Shown in pieces: positions 6,155 through 28,400 of a stretch of 64,000 nucleotides of DNA. The translations under genes and the position numbers were made by a program. Within the stretch, counting starts at the first letter, position 1. Each line of letters starts with the position of its first letter. This stretch comes from Acidobacteriota bacterium (GTDB taxonomy: Bacteria; Acidobacteriota; UBA6911; RPQK01; JAJDTT01): assembly GCA_965209055.1 (NCBI GenBank), contig OZ242374.1, forward strand, positions 5,824,001 through 5,888,000. The letters run 5' to 3'. Below the pieces are notes generated by a model. It worked only from the letters and a program-made list of their open reading frames with translations, was not told the DNA's origin and ran no database searches.

Positions 6155-6162
6155 GAAAAACG

Positions 6163-6270
6163 GGGGGGCGATTTCCTATCTCCCGGTTTTCGTTGCCAAG
6201 TTTGTCAGTCAGGAGTTCGGCGATTGGAAATCGCCGCTCCAGTTCGGCGGTTAGGAAACCGCCGCTCCCC
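6163..6270. repeat. REP/BIME-like hairpin cluster (family A)
   Basis: gggcgatttcctatctccc; ggcgattggaaatcgccgctcc; ggcggttaggaaaccgccgctcc, located between convergent genes. Confidence 0.8.
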
Positions 6271-9507: not shown

Positions 9508-11436
9508 TCAGGTCAGAACCGAACCCGGGCGCACCTTTTCGGTGAAGGTGGCCAGAACCGGTTTTCCTCCGTCCGAAGCCGCCACGATCATTCCGTTGGA
9601 CTCCACACCCATGAGCTTGGCCGGCTTGAGGTTGGTCACAATGACGACCAGACGCCCCGGCAGCGACTCCGGCGAGTACTGCTCGGCGATTCCCGCCACG
9701 ACTTGGCGGACCTCCGACCCCAAGTCCACCTTGAGCTTGAGAAGGCGGGTCGACTTGGGGATGGGCTCTGCGCTCACGATCCGGGCCACCTGCATCCTGA
9801 CCTTGGCGAATTCCTTGATGTCGATGCGGGAATCCTCCCGGCCACCGGCTTTGCCGGCCGCGGATTTTTTCGATTCGGCGCCGACTGCGCCTCGATTCTT
9901 CACTTTCACGCGAAACTCCTTCTTGTCCAACCGGGGATAGATGTGCCCCAACCGCCCGATTGAGGAGCCGCTCTCCAGACCGGCCCACTCCATGGAGGAA
10001 ATCCCATGATCCTCAAGGGGCCGGCGAATGCCGAGCTGGCTCAGTATGGAAGCCGCCCCCTCGGGAACGATGGGACGCAACATCACCGCGATCACCCGCA
10101 ACGCCTCCGCGGCGTTGTACAGGACACTCCCGAGCTGCGCCCGGCGGCTCGGATCCTTGGCCAGAATCCAGGGTTCGTTGACCACCAGGTACTTGTTCAC
10201 GCGGCCGATCAACTCCCAGACGGCTTCCATGGCCTTGTTGATCTGGAGGTCCCCGAATCGTTCCTGGTAGAGCCGCGCGGCCTCGTCACAAGCCTTCCGG
10301 AGCTCCCGGCCCTTCCCGTCCGATTCTCCGGCGTCCGGAATGACGCCGCCGAAATAACTGCCGACCATCTTCAGCGTGCGTTGGGCCAAATTCCCCAGAT
10401 CGTTGACCAGGTCGCTGTTGACCCGTGTCCGCAGCCCGTCGAAGGAGAAGTTTCCGTCGGAACCCAAGGGAATCTCCCGGAGCAGAAAGTAGCGGAAGTA
10501 GTCGGTGCGGACCAGGTTCGAGAGCTCGTCGGCGGTGACGAAGTTGCCCTTGGACTTGGACATTTTCTCCCCTTCGATGGTCCACCACCCATGGCTCAAG
10601 ATCCGCTTGGGGGGAGCCAGCCCGGCCGCCATCAGAAACGCCGGCCAGTAGACCGCATGGAACCGGAGGATGTCCTTGCCGATGAGATGGACGTCGACCG
10701 GCCACCACTTCTCGAACTTCTCGTCGTCGGTGCCGTAGCCCATGCCCGAGATATATCCGGTGAGGGCGTCGAACCAGACGTAGAAGATGTGCTTCTCGTC
10801 GCCGGGGACCGGGATGCCCCAGCGAAATGAAGTGCGGCTGATGCTGAGATCCTGAAGACCGCCTTCGACGAAGCGGACCACCTCGTTCATCCGGGAGCGA
10901 GGGACCACGAAGTCCGGGTTCTCCCGGTAGAACCGCAGCAGCTTGTCCTGGAACGCCGACAGCCTGAAAAAGTAGCTGTCCTCGGTCATGAACTCGGTGG
11001 ACTGGCCACAGTCGGGACAATTCCGGCCCACCACCACATAGGACTCGCAGCTCACGCAGTAGTTGCCCTGGTACTGACCGAGATAGACGCTTCCGCTCTT
11101 CTTGACCGCCCGGAAGAGCTTGGCGACGGCGCGATAATGCCTCTCCTGAGTGGTCCTTATGAACTCGTCGAAGTCCAGCCCGAGCTGCTCCCAGGTGCTT
11201 CGATATTTGGCGGCGTAGGTGTCCACCAGTTCCTGGGGCTCGATGCCCTGTTGCCGGGCCGACCGCTCGATCTTGAGACCGTGCTCGTCGGTGCCGGTCA
11301 GGAAGGAGACGTCGTCGCCGCACATCCGCCGGTAGCGGACGATGGCGTCGGCGATGACGGTGGTGTAGGTATGCCCCACGTGGGGCACGTCGTTGACATA
11401 GTAGAGAGGAGTCGTCAGGTAGAAGGTCTTGGACAT
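9508..11436 (-). CDS. metG: Methionine--tRNA ligase with C-terminal tRNA-binding OB domain
   Basis: YYVNDVPHVGH, GTDEHG, CxxC...CxxC knuckle, YVWFDAL, KMSKS, Trbp111-like C-terminus. Confidence 0.97.
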   Translation of the reverse strand: MSKTFYLTTPLYYVNDVPHVGHTYTTVIADAIVRYRRMCGDDVSFLTGTDEHGLKIERSARQQGIEPQELVDTYAAKYRSTWEQLGLDFDEFIRTTQERHYRAVAKLFRAVKKSGSVYLGQYQGNYCVSCESYVVVGRNCPDCGQSTEFMTEDSYFFRLSAFQDKLLRFYRENPDFVVPRSRMNEVVRFVEGGLQDLSISRTSFRWGIPVPGDEKHIFYVWFDALTGYISGMGYGTDDEKFEKWWPVDVHLIGKDILRFHAVYWPAFLMAAGLAPPKRILSHGWWTIEGEKMSKSKGNFVTADELSNLVRTDYFRYFLLREIPLGSDGNFSFDGLRTRVNSDLVNDLGNLAQRTLKMVGSYFGGVIPDAGESDGKGRELRKACDEAARLYQERFGDLQINKAMEAVWELIGRVNKYLVVNEPWILAKDPSRRAQLGSVLYNAAEALRVIAVMLRPIVPEGAASILSQLGIRRPLEDHGISSMEWAGLESGSSIGRLGHIYPRLDKKEFRVKVKNRGAVGAESKKSAAGKAGGREDSRIDIKEFAKVRMQVARIVSAEPIPKSTRLLKLKVDLGSEVRQVVAGIAEQYSPESLPGRLVVIVTNLKPAKLMGVESNGMIVAASDGGKPVLATFTEKVRPGSVLT

Positions 11437-11442
11437 GGCCCG

Positions 11443-12681
11443 CTACTTTGTCCCGGACGCCTTGCGGATCGCCATCTGTCTCAGGTTCTTCAACGGTAGA
11501 CGGGTCTTTTCGGCGATCCTTTTCAGGTCTTCGTACTCGGGCCAGACGGTGACCGGCTCGCCGCGGAAGAGTCCCACCTTGACCCGTACCGTTCCGTGCC
11601 CGGTCTCCACCTCCCGGAACTCGCGCTCCAGGACCCAACGCCGCCACGGCTTCCAACGAATCCCCAGGGTCGTCGTCTCCCGGAAGATGAGACCCATCAT
11701 GCGGTCCCGGTCCCGGGGCCGGCAAAGCACCGAGAGGTGGTGTCCGGGCCTTCCTTTCTTCATCTGCTGGGGTACGCAACGAACGTCCAGAGCTCCTTGA
11801 CCCAGCGCGGCCTCCATGACGTAGCCGATGGCTTCGGGATCCAGGTCGTCGATATCGGCCTCCAGGACCAGGACTTCTTCGTCGCGCACTCCTTCGGCGG
11901 CTCCCGGGGAGGGCCGTCCCTCGGCGGCTTCACGGCCGAGAACCAGCCTCAACATGTTGGGAATTCCGGGCAGTTCCCGGTCTCCGGCCCCGAACCCCCA
12001 TCGATCCAGGGTCCAGGCGGGGGTCGCAGCGCCGGGCGCCGCCAGCGAGGTGACGATGGCCGCTCCGGTGGGCGTGGTCAACTCGGCCTGCACGTCTCCC
12101 ATGACCACGGGAAAGCCGCGAACCAGATGAGCCGTCGCGGGAGCGGGGACGGGCCAGGTTCCATGGGAGAAGGTCACGGTGCCGCTGCCCAGATTCAGGG
12201 GACTCGAGAAAAAACGGTTGGCGCCCAAATAGTGGATTCCGATGCAGGCGCCGACGATATCCACGATGGCGTCCACCGCCCCCACTTCGTGAAAGTGAAC
12301 GTGCTCCACCGACTCCCCATGGACGGCCGCTTCGGCCCTGGCCAGCCGCCGAAACACCGACAGCGCCATCTCCTTGACCGGATCCTCCAGACGGCTCTCT
12401 TCGATCAGGCCGTAGATCTGCCCTGGCGTGCGTCCATGGGAGTGACCATGGGAGTGCCCGCCATTTTCGAGTTCGACACGGAAATCGGTCCCCGAGAGTC
12501 CGTTCCGGTCGATCTTGCGGGCGCTGAGGCGATAGGGCTCCAGACGCAATGACGCGAGCCGCCGCCTGAGGTGTTCCAAGGGGAGCCCCAGATCCAGCAA
12601 CCCTCCCAGGATCATGTCCCCGCTGACGCCGTTGAAGGCGTCGAAGTAGAGGATGCGATCGCGGCCTCCGTCCGTGCCCAT
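11443..12681 (-). CDS. larC: Nickel-pincer cofactor nickel insertase LarC
   Basis: YFDAFNGVSGDMILG, His-rich HSHGHSHG, VHFHEVGAVDAIVDIVG, ELTTPTGAA, MKKGRPG, ETTTLGIR, PEYED. Confidence 0.93.
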   Translation of the reverse strand: MGTDGGRDRILYFDAFNGVSGDMILGGLLDLGLPLEHLRRRLASLRLEPYRLSARKIDRNGLSGTDFRVELENGGHSHGHSHGRTPGQIYGLIEESRLEDPVKEMALSVFRRLARAEAAVHGESVEHVHFHEVGAVDAIVDIVGACIGIHYLGANRFFSSPLNLGSGTVTFSHGTWPVPAPATAHLVRGFPVVMGDVQAELTTPTGAAIVTSLAAPGAATPAWTLDRWGFGAGDRELPGIPNMLRLVLGREAAEGRPSPGAAEGVRDEEVLVLEADIDDLDPEAIGYVMEAALGQGALDVRCVPQQMKKGRPGHHLSVLCRPRDRDRMMGLIFRETTTLGIRWKPWRRWVLEREFREVETGHGTVRVKVGLFRGEPVTVWPEYEDLKRIAEKTRLPLKNLRQMAIRKASGTK

Positions 12682-12704
12682 GCTGCACACAATAGCACGC
12701 CGGA

Positions 12705-13851
12705 AGGAGGGGCGATTTCCTATCGCCCGTTCTCATGTCGCCGCTGTGGTGCCCGGGGATCCGGCAGTTGGAAGACCGCCGCGGCTGGAAGGGCGATTTC
12801 CTAATCGCCCGGCTCGGCTCGCGTCTCCCGGCAGCTCAGGAATCGGCGGTTGGGAAACCGCCGCTCCTGGAAGGGCGATTTCCTATTCGCCCGGCTCAGC
12901 TCGCGTCTCCCGGCAGCTCAGGAATCGGCGGTTGGGAAACCGCCGCCCCTGGAAGGGCGATTTCCTAATCGCCCGGCTCAGCTCGCGTCTCCCGGCAGCT
13001 CAGGAATCGGCGGTTGGGAAACCGCCGCCCCTGGAAGGGCGATTTCCTAATCGCCCGGCTCAGCTCGCGTCTCCCGGCAGCTCAGGAATCGGCGGTTGGG
13101 AAACCGCCGCTCCTGGAAGGGCGATTTCCTATTCGCCCGGCTCAGCTCGCGTCTCCCGGCAGCTCAGGAATCGGCGGTTGGGAAACCGCCGCCCCTGGAA
13201 GGGCGATTTCCTATTCGCCCGGCTCAGCTCGCGTCTCCCGGCAGCTCAGGAATCGGCGGTTGGGAAACCGCCGCCCCTGGAAGGGCGATTTCCTATTCGC
13301 CCGGCTCAGCTCGCGTCTCCCGGCAGCTCAGGAATCGGCGGTTGGGAAACCGCCGCTCCTGGATGGGCGATTTCCTATTCGCCCGGCTCAGCTCGCGTCT
13401 TCCGGCAGCTCAGGAATCGGCGGTTGGGAAACCGCCGCTCCTGGATGGGCGATTTCCTATTCGCCCGGCTCGGCTCGCGTCTCCCGGCAGCTCAGGAATC
13501 GGCGGTTGGGAAACCGCCGCTCCTGGATGGGCGATTTCCTATTCGCCCGGCTCGGCTCGCGTCTCCCGGCAGCTCAGGAATCGGCGGTTGGGAAACCGCC
13601 GCTCCTGGATGGGCGATTTCCTATTCGCCCGGCTCGGCTCGCGTCTCCCGGCAGCGCAGGAATCGGCGGTTGGAAAACCGCCGCTCCTGGATGGGCGATT
13701 TCCTATTCGCCCGGCTCGGCTCGCGTCTCCCGGCAGCTCAGGAATCGGCGGTTGGGAAACCGCCGCCCCTGGAAGGGCGATTTCCTATTCGCCCGGCTCG
13801 GCTCGCGTCTCCCGGCAGCTCAGGAATCGGCGGTTGGGAAACCGCCGCTCC
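12705..13851. repeat. Tandem array of 13 near-identical 82-bp double-hairpin units (12785-13850) preceded by one degenerate unit
   Basis: Unit: ctggaagggcgatttcctawtcgcccggctcrgctcgcgtctcccggcagctcaggaatcggcggttgggaaaccgccgcyc. Starts at 12785, 12867, 12949 ... 13769. Confidence 0.95.
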
Positions 13852-13895
13852 TGCGCCAAGAATGCCGCCCCTCCTGCGTCTGATATCATTGGCCC

Positions 13896-15926
13896 ATGTT
13901 GCTGCGCCGGGCCCGCCAGAGCGAGGCGTTGTTCCGGGACTTCGTGCGCGAACGATTTTCCTTGGAACTGGGGTCCGCCGCCGCCAAATCCCCTCCCCGG
14001 ATCGAATTCGGGGACCTGGCCTTCGCCTTTCCCTTCGAATTGGCGCGGAGCCTGCGCCGGGCGCCCCGCGACATCGCCTCGGAGACCGCCGCCAACTTCC
14101 CGGTGCCCCCCTGGATGGACCGGGTCGAGGCGGCCGGAGGATACGTCAACGTTTTTCTGAGGCGGGATCGATTCCTGGCCGATCTCCAAGACTCCCTCTC
14201 CCCATCGCCGGAACCGGCGCGCGGCCCGAAGATCATCGTCGAGCACACCAATATCAACCCCAACAAGGCGGCTCACATCGGGCACCTCCGGAACGCGGTC
14301 CTGGGGGACACTTTCGGGCGCCTGTTGCGCTCTCGGGGCCATTCGGTGGAGATCCAGAACTACATCGACGACACCGGCGTTCAGGTCGCCGACGTCGTGG
14401 TCGGATTCCGGCAGTTGCGGAAGTTGAGCCTGGAGCAGGTCCGGGCGATTCCCGAGCCCTTCGACTACTACTGCTGGGACCTGTACGCCCAGGTCTGCGA
14501 CTGGTATGGACAGGAGGACTCGCGCCTGGAACACCGGCGCCGCACCCTTCGAGAGATCGAGGAGGGAGAGGGCGAGACCGGCCGGATGGCCGATCACATT
14601 TCCCTCCGGATCGTGAACGCCCACCTGAGAACCATGTGGCGCATCGGCGTCCGCTACGACGTCCTTCCCCGCGAGAGCCAGATCCTGCGGGAGCGATTCT
14701 GGGACGAGGCCTTCGACCAGCTCAAACAACGCAAGGCCATCACTTTCGTTTCGGACGGACCCAATCGAGGCTGCTGGGTGATGCGGCTTCCAGGCGAGAA
14801 CGGTCAGCCTGCCGAGGAGAAGATCATCGTCCGCAGCGACGGGACCGTCACCTACGTGGGCAAGGACATTGCCTATCAACTCTGGAAGTTCGGCCTGCTG
14901 GAGAAGAACTTTCGCTACCGGGTCGTGCACCGTTATCCGGATCGGGACGAAGTCTGGATGACCAGTTCCGACGGAGCCTCCGACGTCGAGAAGGACTTCG
15001 GACGCGGCCGGAGCGTCTACAACGTCATCGACGTCCGCCAGTCCTACCTGCAGCGGGTGGTGGTCCACGGCCTTCGCAGCCTGGGCCACGATGTCCCCGC
15101 CGATCACTCCACCCACTTTTCCTATGAAATGGTGGCTCTCTCCCTGAAATGCAGCCAGGAACTTGGGATCGAGCTCTCGGAGGCGGATCGCGCCAGACCC
15201 TATGTGGAAGTCTCCGGACGCAAGGGACTGGGAGTCAAGGCCGACGACCTGGTGGACAAGCTGATCGAGAAGTCACTCCTGGAAGTGGCCGACCGGCAGC
15301 CGGACCTGACCCAGGAGGCGCGCCTGCGGATCGCCACCCAGATCGCCATCGGCGCCCTGCGTTATTTCCTCCTCAAATATGCCCGCAACTCGGTCATCGC
15401 ATTCGACTTCGGCGAGGCTCTGAGCTTCGAGGGAGAGACCGGCCCCTATCTGCAATATTCGGTGGTGCGCGCCAACAACATCTTCCGCAAGCTGCGCTCC
15501 CGGCGAGGCGGCGCAGTACAACGGAATCCGGAGGATCGGCAAGAGGAGGGGCGATTTCCAATCGCCCATTCTTCACGCGCTACCGGAGTTCGGCGGTTGG
15601 GAAACCGCCGCTCCAAGGATCTTGGGGAGCACCCGGAACGATTCGCCGATCTGCTCGGGGACGATCAGATCTGGAAGTTGTTGCTTCAGGCCGGAAGGTC
15701 GGAAGGCGCCATCGAGCAGTCTCTCAAGACCCTGGAAATGTCCTACTTGGCCAAGCACGCTTTCTCGCTGGCCCAGATGTTCAACATCTTCTACCATAGC
15801 CATCACATCCTTTCGCAAAAGGACTCGCGCAAGCAGACCTGCTACTTGGCTGTTGCGGACACGGCACGCCGGGCCATGATTCAGTCTCTCGCACTCCTGG
15901 GCATTGAAGTTCCGGAAAGAATGTAG
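13896..15926 (+). CDS. argS: Arginine--tRNA ligase (contains an in-frame REP-derived insertion)
   Basis: VEHTNINPNKAAHIGHLRNA (HIGH), NYIDDTG, SGRKG, FEGETGPYLQY, FYH, GIEVPERM C-terminus. Confidence 0.96.
   Translation: MLLRRARQSEALFRDFVRERFSLELGSAAAKSPPRIEFGDLAFAFPFELARSLRRAPRDIASETAANFPVPPWMDRVEAAGGYVNVFLRRDRFLADLQDSLSPSPEPARGPKIIVEHTNINPNKAAHIGHLRNAVLGDTFGRLLRSRGHSVEIQNYIDDTGVQVADVVVGFRQLRKLSLEQVRAIPEPFDYYCWDLYAQVCDWYGQEDSRLEHRRRTLREIEEGEGETGRMADHISLRIVNAHLRTMWRIGVRYDVLPRESQILRERFWDEAFDQLKQRKAITFVSDGPNRGCWVMRLPGENGQPAEEKIIVRSDGTVTYVGKDIAYQLWKFGLLEKNFRYRVVHRYPDRDEVWMTSSDGASDVEKDFGRGRSVYNVIDVRQSYLQRVVVHGLRSLGHDVPADHSTHFSYEMVALSLKCSQELGIELSEADRARPYVEVSGRKGLGVKADDLVDKLIEKSLLEVADRQPDLTQEARLRIATQIAIGALRYFLLKYARNSVIAFDFGEALSFEGETGPYLQYSVVRANNIFRKLRSRRGGAVQRNPEDRQEEGRFPIAHSSRATGVRRLGNRRSKDLGEHPERFADLLGDDQIWKLLLQAGRSEGAIEQSLKTLEMSYLAKHAFSLAQMFNIFYHSHHILSQKDSRKQTCYLAVADTARRAMIQSLALLGIEVPERM
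15545..15614 (+). repeat. Family-A double-hairpin element inside the argS coding sequence
   Basis: GGAGgggcgatttccaatcgccc...ggagttcggcggttgggaaaccgccgCTCC, the same arms as the intergenic copies. Confidence 0.88.
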
Positions 15927-28214: not shown

Positions 28215-28385
28215 GGGAAGGGCGATTTCCAATCGCCCGTCTTTCTATTGCCGGTCCGCCCACGCTCCAAGATTCGGCGGTTTGGAAACCGCCGCCCCAA
28301 GGAGGGGCGATTTCCAATCGCCCGTCTTTCTTTCGCCGGTCCGCACACGCTCGAAGATTCGGCGGTTTGGAAACCGCCGCCCCAA
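28215..28385. repeat. Two tandem family-A double-hairpin units
   Basis: gggcgatttccaatcgccc...gattcggcggtttggaaaccgccgcccc twice, between convergent tatA and cutA. Confidence 0.85.
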
Positions 28386-28400
28386 AGAGGGGCTTCCGTT

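What the first reader, a model, noticed from the sequence alone, without database searches (positions are those of the whole stretch)
12705..13851. 1.1-kb tandem amplification of an 82-bp double-hairpin unit between divergent larC and argS
Seen: 13 copies at an exact 82-bp period, differing at a few positions arranged in blocks (gaag in units 1-7 and 13 versus gatg in 8-12; ctcAg in 2-8 versus ctcGg in 1 and 9-13), preceded by an older degenerate unit with a different linker. Unlike the other intergenic copies in this window, it lies between divergent genes and abuts both putative -10 elements. Inference: a recent, still-evolving expansion by slippage, unequal recombination or rolling amplification. 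It could form about 26 hairpins, act as a nucleoid/gyrase platform, be processed into unit-length RNAs, or tune argS and larC-metG expression by copy number.
Basis: partly seen in the sequence, partly recalled or inferred. Interest (0 to 1): 0.7.

Follow-up and report, generated by a model that had tools for sequence, protein, structure and literature searches.

The report
Tandem array of REP hairpin doublets
A small mobile DNA hairpin pair has been copied 13 times head to tail between the start sites of two housekeeping genes in a sponge-associated bacterium; it is a large but ordinary example of a known kind of bacterial repeat.

Summary
Window 12787-13852 holds 13 head-to-tail units of exactly 82 bp, with no indels and 93-100% pairwise identity. 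An older, different doublet precedes them at 12705-12786. The array lies between divergent larC and argS.

The two hairpins of a unit are one 20-nt REP (8-bp stem, RGRA tetraloop) in opposite orientations. The unit is therefore a REP doublet (REPIN/BIME-like).

- Family size: about 208 full doublets at 218 loci in this 6.08-Mb genome, and nine other smaller tandem arrays.
- Distribution: found in all 8 same-genus genomes searched and in none of 6 from the sister genus.
- Candidate mobiliser: one RAYT-like Y1 transposase gene has family REPs directly upstream.
- Recent mobility: a 72-bp doublet sits in frame inside argS and is absent from 7 relatives.

The nearest relative has a single doublet at the same larC-argS site, so the 13 copies arose in place. 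Variant blocks with all four site combinations point to continuing unequal exchange. Both core promoters (extended -10, apparently leaderless) are intact.

Copy number could not be checked with long reads. No function was shown.

Verdict: a new, unusually large member of the BIME/REPIN-cluster kind, in Acidobacteriota.

The parts
12705..12786 (.). Unit 0: an older REP doublet, also 82 bp long, with a different 33-nt inner linker and degenerate hairpins
   Evidence: It matches the array consensus in 62 of 85 aligned columns. Its linker alone is not significantly similar to the array linker (81 of 1000 shuffles score as well). It resembles the single doublet at the same site in the nearest relative G008.
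12787..13852 (.). 13 head-to-tail units of 82 bp. Each unit is REP(-) GGGCGATTTCCTA[T/A]TCGCCC, a 33-nt linker, REP(+) CGGCGGTTGGGAAACCGCCG, and a junction of about 9 nt
   Evidence: The period is exact, with 0 indels and 7 variable sites. The cluster holds 26 alternating REPs.
13853..13880 (.). Spacer between the array and the argS promoter, with a weak REP-like remnant (GCGCCAAGAATGCCGCC); its argS-proximal part (about 13868-13880, CCCCTCCTGCGTC) is conserved in the genus
   Evidence: The CCTCC[T/G]GCGTC part is present in 7 of the 9 genus genomes (variants CCTCCTACGTC in G002 and G003; CTCAGACGTC in G006).
13881..13895 (+). Putative extended -10 of argS (TGATATCAT) followed by a 6-nt spacer to the ATG at 13896, which implies a leaderless mRNA
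   Evidence: The sequence is conserved in 9 of 9 genus genomes. Genome-wide, TGnTANNNT peaks exactly 6 nt before start codons: 32 cases against a background of about 3. This is an inference; no transcription start was mapped.
12679..12697 (-). Putative extended -10 of larC (TGCTATTGT, 12697-12689) with 7 nt to an in-frame ATG (12681-12679). The ORF tool instead starts larC at the GTG at 12690
   Evidence: The AATAGCA core is conserved in 9 of 9 genus genomes. This is an inference.
11443..12690 (-). larC (nickel insertion protein), with metG downstream at 9508-11436
   Evidence: PF01969, E = 6.7e-140.
13896..15926 (+). argS (arginyl-tRNA synthetase)
   Evidence: PF00750, PF05746 and PF03485.
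15543..15615 (+). A 72-bp REP doublet of the same family inserted in frame inside argS, adding 24 residues in a variable linker. It shows the doublet is the mobile unit and moved recently
   Evidence: ArgS is 676 aa here and 652 aa in 7 relatives. The insertion is missing from all 7. The boundaries are ambiguous by about 3 nt.
6162..6268 (.). Another locus of the same REP family in the window, between convergent genes
28215..28393 (.). A small array of the same family (85 bp x 2.1), between co-directional genes

Best explanation
The region is a BIME/REPIN-cluster-type tandem array: a non-autonomous REP doublet amplified in place.

Shown:
- Each 82-bp unit is two inverted copies of one 20-nt palindrome (8-bp stem, RGRA tetraloop) around a 33-nt linker.
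- The doublet is a dispersed genome-wide family confined to this genus.
- A doublet has recently inserted in frame into argS.
- The nearest relative carries one doublet at the larC-argS site.
- The 13 units are far more alike than any is to another locus, and their variants are shuffled among units.

Inferred history:
1. A doublet was mobilised by the genome's REP-adjacent RAYT-like HUH/Y1 transposase acting on single-stranded hairpins. It landed in the only dispensable stretch between the back-to-back, extended -10, leaderless promoters of larC and argS.
2. A second doublet came to lie directly beside it (unit 0 plus unit 1, exactly 82 bp out of register).
3. Misaligned pairing between the neighbouring REPs, through replication slippage or unequal sister-chromatid exchange and possibly helped by transposase nicking, duplicated the inner unit. 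Long homology then drove expansion to 13 copies, with continuing exchange.

Both promoter cores are untouched, so the array is tolerated. Its most likely status is selfish or neutral. Its only sure effect is to move the two promoters from tens of bases to 1.2 kb apart and to place hairpin-prone DNA upstream of both.
For: Anatomy:
- Exact 82-bp period, 13.3 copies, no indels.
- 26 REPs alternate -+ with spacings 53/29.
- As single-stranded DNA the unit folds into the two 8-bp or 6-bp stem hairpins. As RNA one unit can also form the long doublet hairpin.

Family:
- 286 REP hits in 173 clusters.
- A doublet profile gives 394 hits at 218 loci, with 208 non-overlapping full doublets, 14 of them here.
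- Nine other REP arrays have periods of 28-94 bp and their own linkers. This array is the largest.
- The family was found in 8 of 8 same-genus genomes, 0 of 6 of the sister genus, and 1 (weak) of 26 others in the order.

Amplification in place:
- Units are 92.7-100% alike.
- The best match elsewhere in the genome is 84-88%.
- G008, the nearest relative (ArgS 97% identical), has a single doublet at the same site in a 128-bp spacer. G004 has a 44-bp spacer with none.
- Five of six informative site pairs show four combinations.

Mobility: the 72-bp in-frame doublet in argS is absent from 7 relatives.

Mobiliser:
- A 252-aa protein at G000:C1:1142805-1143563 scores 77.4 bits on NF047646, REP-associated tyrosine transposase (cut-off 80), and 29.7 bits on PF01797.
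- Its only PDB match is E. coli TnpA_REP, 4ER8, with the HUH and YxxxNP stretches aligned.
- Three REPs lie 62-161 bp upstream of it. None lies within 2.5 kb of the six weaker Y1-like genes.
- Its best orthologue in G003 also has two doublets directly upstream.
- Close homologues (64% identity or more) occur only in this genus.
- The two nearest homologues outside it, L032 and L033, have 8-bp-stem RGRA-loop hairpins at the gene.

Promoters: both cores are conserved in 9 of 9 genus genomes, and a genome-wide class of TGnTANNNT lies 6 nt before start codons.

Independent data: a run from another study (X7) carries the same left and right array junctions.

Literature (passages read):
- In E. coli, tandem BIME copies are well conserved within a locus, differ between loci and vary in number between strains. 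TnpA_REP recombination in vitro assembles tandem copies (PMC3333891).
- Ordered tandem REPIN clusters occur in P. fluorescens SBW25 (PMC3116915).
Against: Copy number:
- No read spans the array. All runs were available only as short assembled contigs, which break inside it, so 13 copies rests on the one assembly.
- In-array contigs in X1 are only about 3 times as deep as the flanks, where 4-5 identical copies of those words would be expected. The tool warns that this depth is not a copy number.

The transposase link is incomplete:
- The protein scores just under NCBIfam's cut-off.
- REPs flank only its 5' side.
- In this genome a multi-copy integrase gene lies just beyond those REPs.
- Only 3 of 17 homologue loci in the genus, and 2 of 31 outside it, have such hairpins at the gene.

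Mechanism:
- Array junctions in the other arrays carry 1-8 extra bases. The data therefore do not decide between slippage or unequal exchange and transposase-made concatemers.
- Ten of 13 units carry a T that shortens one stem from 8 to 6 bp, so perfect hairpins are not being maintained.
- G008 is a 670-contig assembly, in which an array could in principle have collapsed.

Neutrality is assumed, not shown.
Confidence: 0.8

Rival explanations
1. Transposase-made concatemer. The RAYT-like enzyme excised a single-stranded doublet circle and rolling-circle copying, or repeated end-joining next to a resident copy, laid down the units. Host recombination played no part in building the array.
For: - The period equals one complete element. 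The argS insertion defines a 72-bp element with a 23-nt linker, and a 33-nt linker gives 82 bp.
- All six doublet arrays have periods only 1-8 nt longer than an element, and none includes long flanking DNA.
- In vitro strand transfer by E. coli TnpA_REP gives tandem BIMEs, and a rolling-circle model has been published (PMC3333891, passages).
Against: - The phase of a tandem array cannot be seen in its interior. Two adjacent 82-bp doublets (unit 0 and unit 1) suffice to seed homologous expansion.
- The four-combination pattern of variants needs exchange between units anyway.
- Junction spacers differ between arrays.
- The enzyme's activity is untested.
Confidence: 0.25
2. Selected regulatory spacer. 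The array uncouples or tunes the two back-to-back promoters through distance, cruciform or supercoil absorption, or protein binding. Copy number sets argS and larC-metG expression.
For: - The spacer between two conserved promoter cores ranges from 44 to 1205 bp across 9 genus genomes.
- It was tandemly amplified twice independently: 82 bp x 13 here, and 393 bp x 3, including the first 64 codons of larC, in G002.
- 4 of 10 arrays lie between divergent genes and none between convergent genes.
Against: - No expression data exist.
- G004 manages with a 44-bp spacer.
- Genes next to the other arrays share no theme: glycosyltransferases, an LRR protein, solute symporters, an ABC transporter, a PSD1/PSCyt protein.
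- Family loci as a whole are, if anything, depleted at divergent gaps: 16 of 101 intergenic clusters against 20% of gaps.
- Stem-weakening variants spread within the array.
Confidence: 0.12
3. Assembly artefact. The true locus has one or a few units, and the assembler over-expanded a short repeat.
For: - No independent read spans the array.
- In-array contig depth in X1 is lower than 13 copies would naively suggest.
- Genome contamination is estimated at 7.4%.
Against: - The 13 units carry 10 distinct sequences in an ordered block pattern, which simple over-expansion would not create.
- The genome is a single 6.08-Mb contig.
- Both junctions recur in a second study's run, X7. In-array words are multi-copy relative to the flanks in X1.
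- Nine other arrays of the same family exist in this genome.
Confidence: 0.05
4. An array of structured non-coding RNAs, CRISPR-like or sRNA precursors, processed to unit length.
For: - Regular hairpins; the RNA fold of two units has z = -2.1.
- Ten terminator-like sites on the plus strand against 1.5 expected.
- One RNA-library contig from a relative reaches the last REP.
Against: - No Rfam family matches.
- There are no unique spacers between repeats.
- No promoter-like site lies inside the array.
- The same hairpins are scattered at 218 loci in every gene context, including inside genes.
- RNA-library contigs may derive from DNA (tool caveat).
Confidence: 0.03

Closest known systems
E. coli BIME-2 and atypical BIMEs (tandem REP/iREP arrays associated with TnpA_REP/RAYT)
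   Same: - 20-40-nt palindromes in alternating orientation, separated by alternating short and long linkers.
- Tandem copies that are well conserved within a locus but differ between loci.
- Copy number and edges that vary between strains.
- An HUH/Y1 transposase relative with REPs beside its gene (PMC3333891, passages read).
   Different: - There is no GTAG or CGTC tag at the foot of the REP. The conserved features here are an RGRA tetraloop and GGAG...CTCC ends.
- The phylum is different (Acidobacteriota record titles).
- The array has 26-28 REPs. I recall, from no call, that E. coli arrays reach about a dozen.
- It lies between two promoters rather than at 3' ends.
- Binding of gyrase, IHF or Pol I is untested.
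REPINs and ordered REPIN clusters of Pseudomonas fluorescens SBW25
   Same: - The replicative unit is a doublet of inverted REPs able to form a hairpin.
- Doublets dominate the family.
- Tandem repeats of nearly identical doublets occur.
- A REP cluster lies beside the RAYT gene (PMC3116915, passages read).
   Different: - The largest ordered SBW25 cluster described has four REPINs plus one REP, and its repeat units include flanking sequence. This array has 13-14 doublets, and the period is essentially the bare element.
- The RAYT-like gene here has REPs on one side only and scores just under the family cut-off.
Intragenic palindromic elements (REPs within coding regions; Rickettsia palindromic elements)
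   Same: This comparison applies to the side observation. A palindromic repeat is inserted in frame in a housekeeping gene without breaking it. Intragenic GTAG and CGTC REPs are reported in PMC3733652 (passages read).
   Different: The Rickettsia comparison is recalled, not checked. The element here belongs to a different family, and the insertion is species-specific.

Membership tests
BIME (tandem REP/iREP mosaic element) | Built from a short imperfect palindrome present in high copy number in the genome, mostly outside genes | tested here: met
   There are 286 REP hits in 173 clusters. Of 218 doublet loci, 196 lie outside my crude gene calls.
BIME (tandem REP/iREP mosaic element) | REP and inverted REP alternate, separated by alternating linkers | tested here: met
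   26 REPs alternate -+ with spacings 53/29.
BIME (tandem REP/iREP mosaic element) | Tandem copies are conserved within a locus and differ between loci | tested here: met
   Identity is 92.7-100% within the array and at most 88% to other loci. Each of the other arrays has its own linker.
BIME (tandem REP/iREP mosaic element) | Copy number at a locus varies between strains | tested here: inconclusive
   Run X5 shows a different left edge, with no unit 0. The congener G008 has one doublet. No copy count could be made in any other strain.
BIME (tandem REP/iREP mosaic element) | Binding of DNA gyrase, IHF or Pol I | not testable with these tools
   This needs biochemistry.
GTAG- or CGTC-tagged REP superfamilies | A conserved GTAG or CGTC tetranucleotide at one end of the stem | tested here: not met
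   Neither the unit consensus nor the doublet consensus contains GTAG/CTAC or CGTC/GACG at the stem feet. The definition is taken from PMC3733652.
REPIN-RAYT system | Inverted REP doublets are the main, best-conserved form | tested here: met
   291 of 394 profile hits are full length, giving 208 non-overlapping doublets.
REPIN-RAYT system | The doublet folds into one long hairpin | tested here: inconclusive
   The RNA fold pairs the two REPs of one unit. The DNA fold prefers two local hairpins.
REPIN-RAYT system | A RAYT (HUH plus Y motif, TnpA_REP family) is present | tested here: inconclusive
   NF047646 scores 77.4 bits against a cut-off of 80. PF01797 passes. The only PDB hit is 4ER8, with both motifs aligned.
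REPIN-RAYT system | The RAYT gene is flanked by its cognate REPs | tested here: inconclusive
   REPs lie 62-161 bp on the 5' side only. The same holds in G003 and G008. Only 3 of 17 homologue loci in the genus show this.
REPIN-RAYT system | Evidence that doublets move | tested here: met
   A 72-bp in-frame doublet in argS is absent from 7 relatives.
CRISPR array | Direct repeats separated by unique spacers of similar size | tested here: not met
   The whole 82-bp unit repeats and there are no unique spacers. A true CRISPR array lies elsewhere in the genome.

The most novel reading that the evidence does not exclude
The larC-argS spacer is an amplification hot spot driven or selected by divergent transcription. 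Two back-to-back leaderless promoters generate negative supercoiling. This extrudes hairpins, promotes slippage, and favours long hairpin-rich spacers that absorb torsion and uncouple the promoters. That would explain why the same 44-bp core was expanded by tandem amplification twice independently in one genus: 82 bp x 13 here and 393 bp x 3 in G002. It would make REP arrays copy-number-variable promoter insulators rather than mere passengers.
Probability: 0.1. Interest if true: 0.6.

Novelty: new member of a known kind. Interest (0 to 1): 0.33.

Why it matters
REP/BIME and REPIN-RAYT systems have been worked out almost entirely in Proteobacteria. This case offers several things.

- It is a clean example in an uncultured, sponge-associated Acidobacteriota genus, with a REP that lacks the GTAG and CGTC tags.
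- It has a candidate cognate transposase from a clade shared with Verrucomicrobiota and Kiritimatiellae.
- It includes a dated insertion into an essential gene.
- Its array is larger than those described in the passages I read.
- For annotation, it warns that the 1.2-kb 'intergenic region' and the long open frame through it are repeat DNA.
- For population work, it offers a ready VNTR-like marker.

It opens no long-standing question.

Tried and rejected
- **Rfam:** a scan of the whole window at gathering thresholds gave no match.
- **Promoter scan:** the sigma-70 -35/-10 scan of 12500-14000 found no site. The promoter reading rests instead on extended -10 motifs and their conservation.
- **Coding reading:** the long ORF 12653-15127 runs through the array. 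I rejected it as coding. The period is not a multiple of 3, the frame differs from argS, and my GC3-based gene caller places no gene between 12690 and 13896.
- **Two mobile families at one site:** I tested whether the same spacer was hit by a second mobile family. The purine-ended 251-bp spacer of G001 matches only itself in 9 genus genomes, so it is not a repeat family.
- **Common theme among array neighbours:** none was found.
- **Hairpins beside distant RAYT homologues:** 29 of 31 loci outside the genus have none by my strict criterion.
- **Copy number and transcription from public runs:**
  - Only short assembled contigs were available, none spans the array, and several bins have no cover.
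  - Summed depth in the array bins (310-356 against 24 in the flanks) includes other REP loci and is not a copy number.
  - The RNA-library run X18 holds only 7 contigs here, from a 93%-identical relative.
- **Earlier scan notes on look-alike stretches in other genomes:** none.
- **Literature:**
  - 'repetitive extragenic palindromic' + sponge + symbiont gave 2 irrelevant papers.
  - RAYT + Acidobacteria gave only general surveys.
  - I found nothing in print on this family with those two searches.
  - I did not open the supplements of the papers I cite. They may list larger arrays or Acidobacteriota RAYT classes.

Full report
**Observation**

Tandem Repeats Finder reports 12762-13853, period 82, 13.3 copies, 97% matches, no indels, score 1995. 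In register, 13 units of exactly 82 bp occupy 12787-13852. An 82-bp degenerate unit lies at 12705-12786.

The block-wise variants are exactly as described. In total there are 7 variable sites and 10 distinct unit sequences, with pairwise identity of 92.7-100%. The two hairpin patterns occur 19 and 13 times in the window, against 0.04 and 0.01 expected.

The flanks are larC (with metG behind it) on the minus strand and argS on the plus strand.

**What the unit is**

The 'double hairpin' is one palindrome used twice. Read on the minus strand, the first hairpin is GGGCGATT-AGGA-AATCGCCC. The second, on the plus strand, is CGGCGGTT-GGGA-AACCGCCG. Each has an 8-bp stem and a purine tetraloop.

A mismatch-tolerant scan finds 26 such REPs here, strictly alternating -+ with spacings of 53 and 29 nt. 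The unit is thus a doublet of inverted REPs around a 33-nt inner linker, and successive doublets are joined by about 9 nt.

As single-stranded DNA, two units fold into the four local hairpins (z = -2.9). As RNA, one unit can instead pair its two REPs into a long hairpin.

**The family**

The window's genome is one 6.08-Mb contig with 62.8% G+C.
- It holds 286 REP hits in 173 clusters.
- An iterated nhmmer profile seeded with one doublet gives 394 hits at 218 loci. Because the element is quasi-palindromic, many positions hit on both strands. This reduces to 208 non-overlapping full-length doublets, 14 of them in this array.
- A whole-genome tandem-repeat scan shows nine more REP arrays. Their periods are 28, 32, 34, 43, 80, 81, 82, 85 and 94 bp, with 3-9 copies each, and each has its own linker. 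This array is the largest.

I used a crude GC3-based gene call: 4470 genes, which recovers larC, metG and argS correctly. On that basis the 218 loci lie between co-directional (107), convergent (60) or divergent (29) genes, or inside calls (22). Of the 10 arrays, 4 lie between divergent genes, 6 between co-directional genes and none between convergent genes. Genes next to the five larger arrays share no theme.

The family occurs in 8 of 8 same-genus genomes, 0 of 6 of the sister genus and 1 (weak) of 26 others in the order. Record titles of the nearest relatives read 'MAG: Acidobacteriota bacterium'. The runs that hold the stretch are labelled sponge metagenomes or carry coded host organisms.

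**History of the locus**

larC and argS are adjacent and divergent in all 9 genus genomes. Two short cores are conserved in all of them:
- AATAGCA next to larC;
- GTCTGATATCAT (plus 6 nt) next to the argS ATG.

The DNA between these cores is 44 bp in G004, 97 in G006, 128 in G008, 195 in G003, 251-287 in G001, G007 and G005, 1067 in G002 and 1205 here.

G008 is the nearest relative (ArgS 97% identical). It carries a single REP doublet at this site. That doublet's linker begins like that of unit 0 here. The 13 array units must therefore have been added on this lineage.

They are 93-100% alike, yet no other locus in the genome matches them better than 84-88%. This argues for copying in place rather than repeated arrivals. 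Five of six informative site pairs show all four combinations, which calls for exchange between units or recurrent mutation.

Unit 0 aligns to the consensus at 62 of 85 columns, and its linker is not significantly similar to the array linker (81 of 1000 shuffles score as well). I therefore read it as a separate, older doublet rather than a decayed array member.

Unit 0 is also 82 bp long, so its REPs lie exactly one period from those of unit 1. Misaligned pairing between these neighbouring REPs would duplicate precisely an inner-type unit and seed the array.

**Mobility and the candidate mobiliser**

ArgS is 676 aa here and 652 aa in 7 relatives. The difference is a 72-bp doublet of the family inserted in frame at about 15543-15615, in a variable linker. 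This defines the mobile unit and shows recent movement.

With its 23-nt linker that element is 72 bp. With a 33-nt linker it would be 82 bp, which is the array period.

Seven genes in the genome hit the REP-associated tyrosine transposase model.
- The best is a 252-aa protein at G000:C1:1142805-1143563. It scores 77.4 bits against a cut-off of 80, and passes Pfam Y1_Tnp.
- Its only PDB match is E. coli TnpA_REP (4ER8), with the HVH and YIRENP stretches aligned to HMH and YIYINP.
- It alone has family REPs nearby, three of them 62-161 bp upstream. None lies on its 3' side.

Against the link:
- In this genome a multi-copy integrase gene (29 tblastn hits) sits just beyond those REPs.
- Only 3 of 17 homologue loci in the genus have REPs within 80 bp upstream. 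I left three fragmentary matches out of that count.

For the link:
- The best orthologue in G003 (77% identical) has two doublets directly upstream and no integrase.
- Close homologues (64% identity or more) are confined to the genus.
- The two nearest homologues outside it have different 8-bp stems but the same RGRA/TYCY tetraloop hairpins at the gene. They are a Gammaproteobacteria MAG and a Kiritimatiellae MAG, at 61% and 59% identity. The other 29 of 31 loci examined have none.

I rate the RAYT-REP pairing as likely but unproven.

**Promoters**

The consensus -35/-10 scan finds nothing.

argS has TGATATCAT ending 6 nt before its ATG. Genome-wide, TGnTANNNT peaks sharply at exactly that spacing: 32 cases against about 3 at other offsets. 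argS therefore probably belongs to a class of leaderless genes with extended -10 promoters.

larC has TGCTATTGT 7 nt before an in-frame ATG.

Both cores are outside the array. On the larC side the array complex starts about 8 bp from the -10. On the argS side 28 conserved bases intervene. The insertion thus occupies the one stretch that both promoters can spare.

**Reads**

All four runs laid were short assembled contigs, and none spans the array.
- In X1, the best holder and possibly the source, one contig runs from larC into unit 1 and another from unit 13 into argS. In-array contigs are 72-80 deep against 24-27 in the flanks.
- X7, from another study, has identical left (12628-12814) and right (13796-13895) junctions.
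- In X5, whose flanks are about 99% identical, a 6.4-kb contig passes from the larC flank straight into an array-type unit and skips unit 0. The left edge therefore differs between strains.
- An RNA-library contig (X18) from a 93%-identical relative covers 13828-14212. The tool warns this does not show transcription.

Copy number remains unverified.

**Comparison with what is known**

The passages I read in PMC3333891 describe E. coli BIME-2 as tandem REP/iREP copies with the following properties:
- they are well conserved within a locus;
- they are variable between loci;
- they are variable in number between strains;
- TnpA_REP recombination in vitro yields tandem copies;
- slippage-free models are offered, including rolling-circle amplification.

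PMC3116915 describes ordered tandem REPIN clusters in SBW25. The largest has four REPINs plus one REP.

PMC3733652 sorts most REPs into GTAG- and CGTC-tagged superfamilies and reports intragenic REPs. The present REP has neither tag.

The bioRxiv preprint 10.1101/279083 classifies TnpA_Y1 proteins. I did not place this protein in its scheme.

**Verdict**

This is a genuine, recently amplified BIME/REPIN-cluster-type array. It is unusually long, sits in an unusual host lineage and has an unusual REP signature, but it is of a known kind. Functions beyond being a tolerated passenger are untested.

Noticed in passing
window 15543-15615 (inside argS): A 72-bp REP doublet is inserted in frame in the essential argS gene. 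It adds 24 residues in a variable linker and is absent from 7 congeners. My crude gene calls put 21 further family loci inside genes.
   Followed up: partly
L026 (G002) 434-1500: In congener G002 the larC-argS spacer is 1067 bp. A 393-bp unit is present three times. It comprises the larC promoter, the first 64 larC codons and a purine/pyrimidine-ended spacer. This is a second, independent tandem amplification at the same site.
   Followed up: partly
L025, L027, L029 (G001, G005, G007) larC-argS spacers: These spacers of 251-287 bp begin with a purine-rich run (GGAAAGGAAAG...) and end with its pyrimidine-rich inverse. They could form a long hairpin or triplex. The G001 copy is single-copy in all 9 genus genomes.
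   Followed up: partly
G000:C1:1143837-1144682 and 28 other tblastn hits, about 26 of them full-length (85-100% identical): A 282-aa tyrosine-recombinase-like gene gives 29 tblastn hits in the genome, about 27 of them full-length copies at 85-100% identity. One copy lies just beyond the REP cluster upstream of the RAYT-like gene. An earlier scan note reads it as an integrase element that targets REP hairpins.
   Followed up: partly
G000:C1:4890985-4893914: A CRISPR-like array with a period of about 67 bp and the repeat GTCGCCCCCTTACACGGGGGCGTGGATTGAAAC.
   Followed up: no
L032 and L033, 2100-2500: In a Gammaproteobacteria MAG and a Kiritimatiellae MAG, the nearest RAYT homologues and their hairpins follow the same conserved coding sequence (...DQIRRYHRETPELF...IFNWK). 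By recall this looks like part of a type I restriction enzyme subunit. It suggests a shared insertion site or joint transfer.
   Followed up: no
genome-wide, upstream of start codons: TGnTANNNT lies exactly 6 nt before the start codon in 32 crude gene calls, against about 3 at other spacings. This points to a sizeable class of leaderless genes in this Acidobacteriota genome.
   Followed up: partly
window 12653-15127 (+): An 824-codon open frame runs through the whole array and into argS in another frame. The unit has no stop codon in any plus-strand frame, so automatic annotation could miscall it as a gene.
   Followed up: yes
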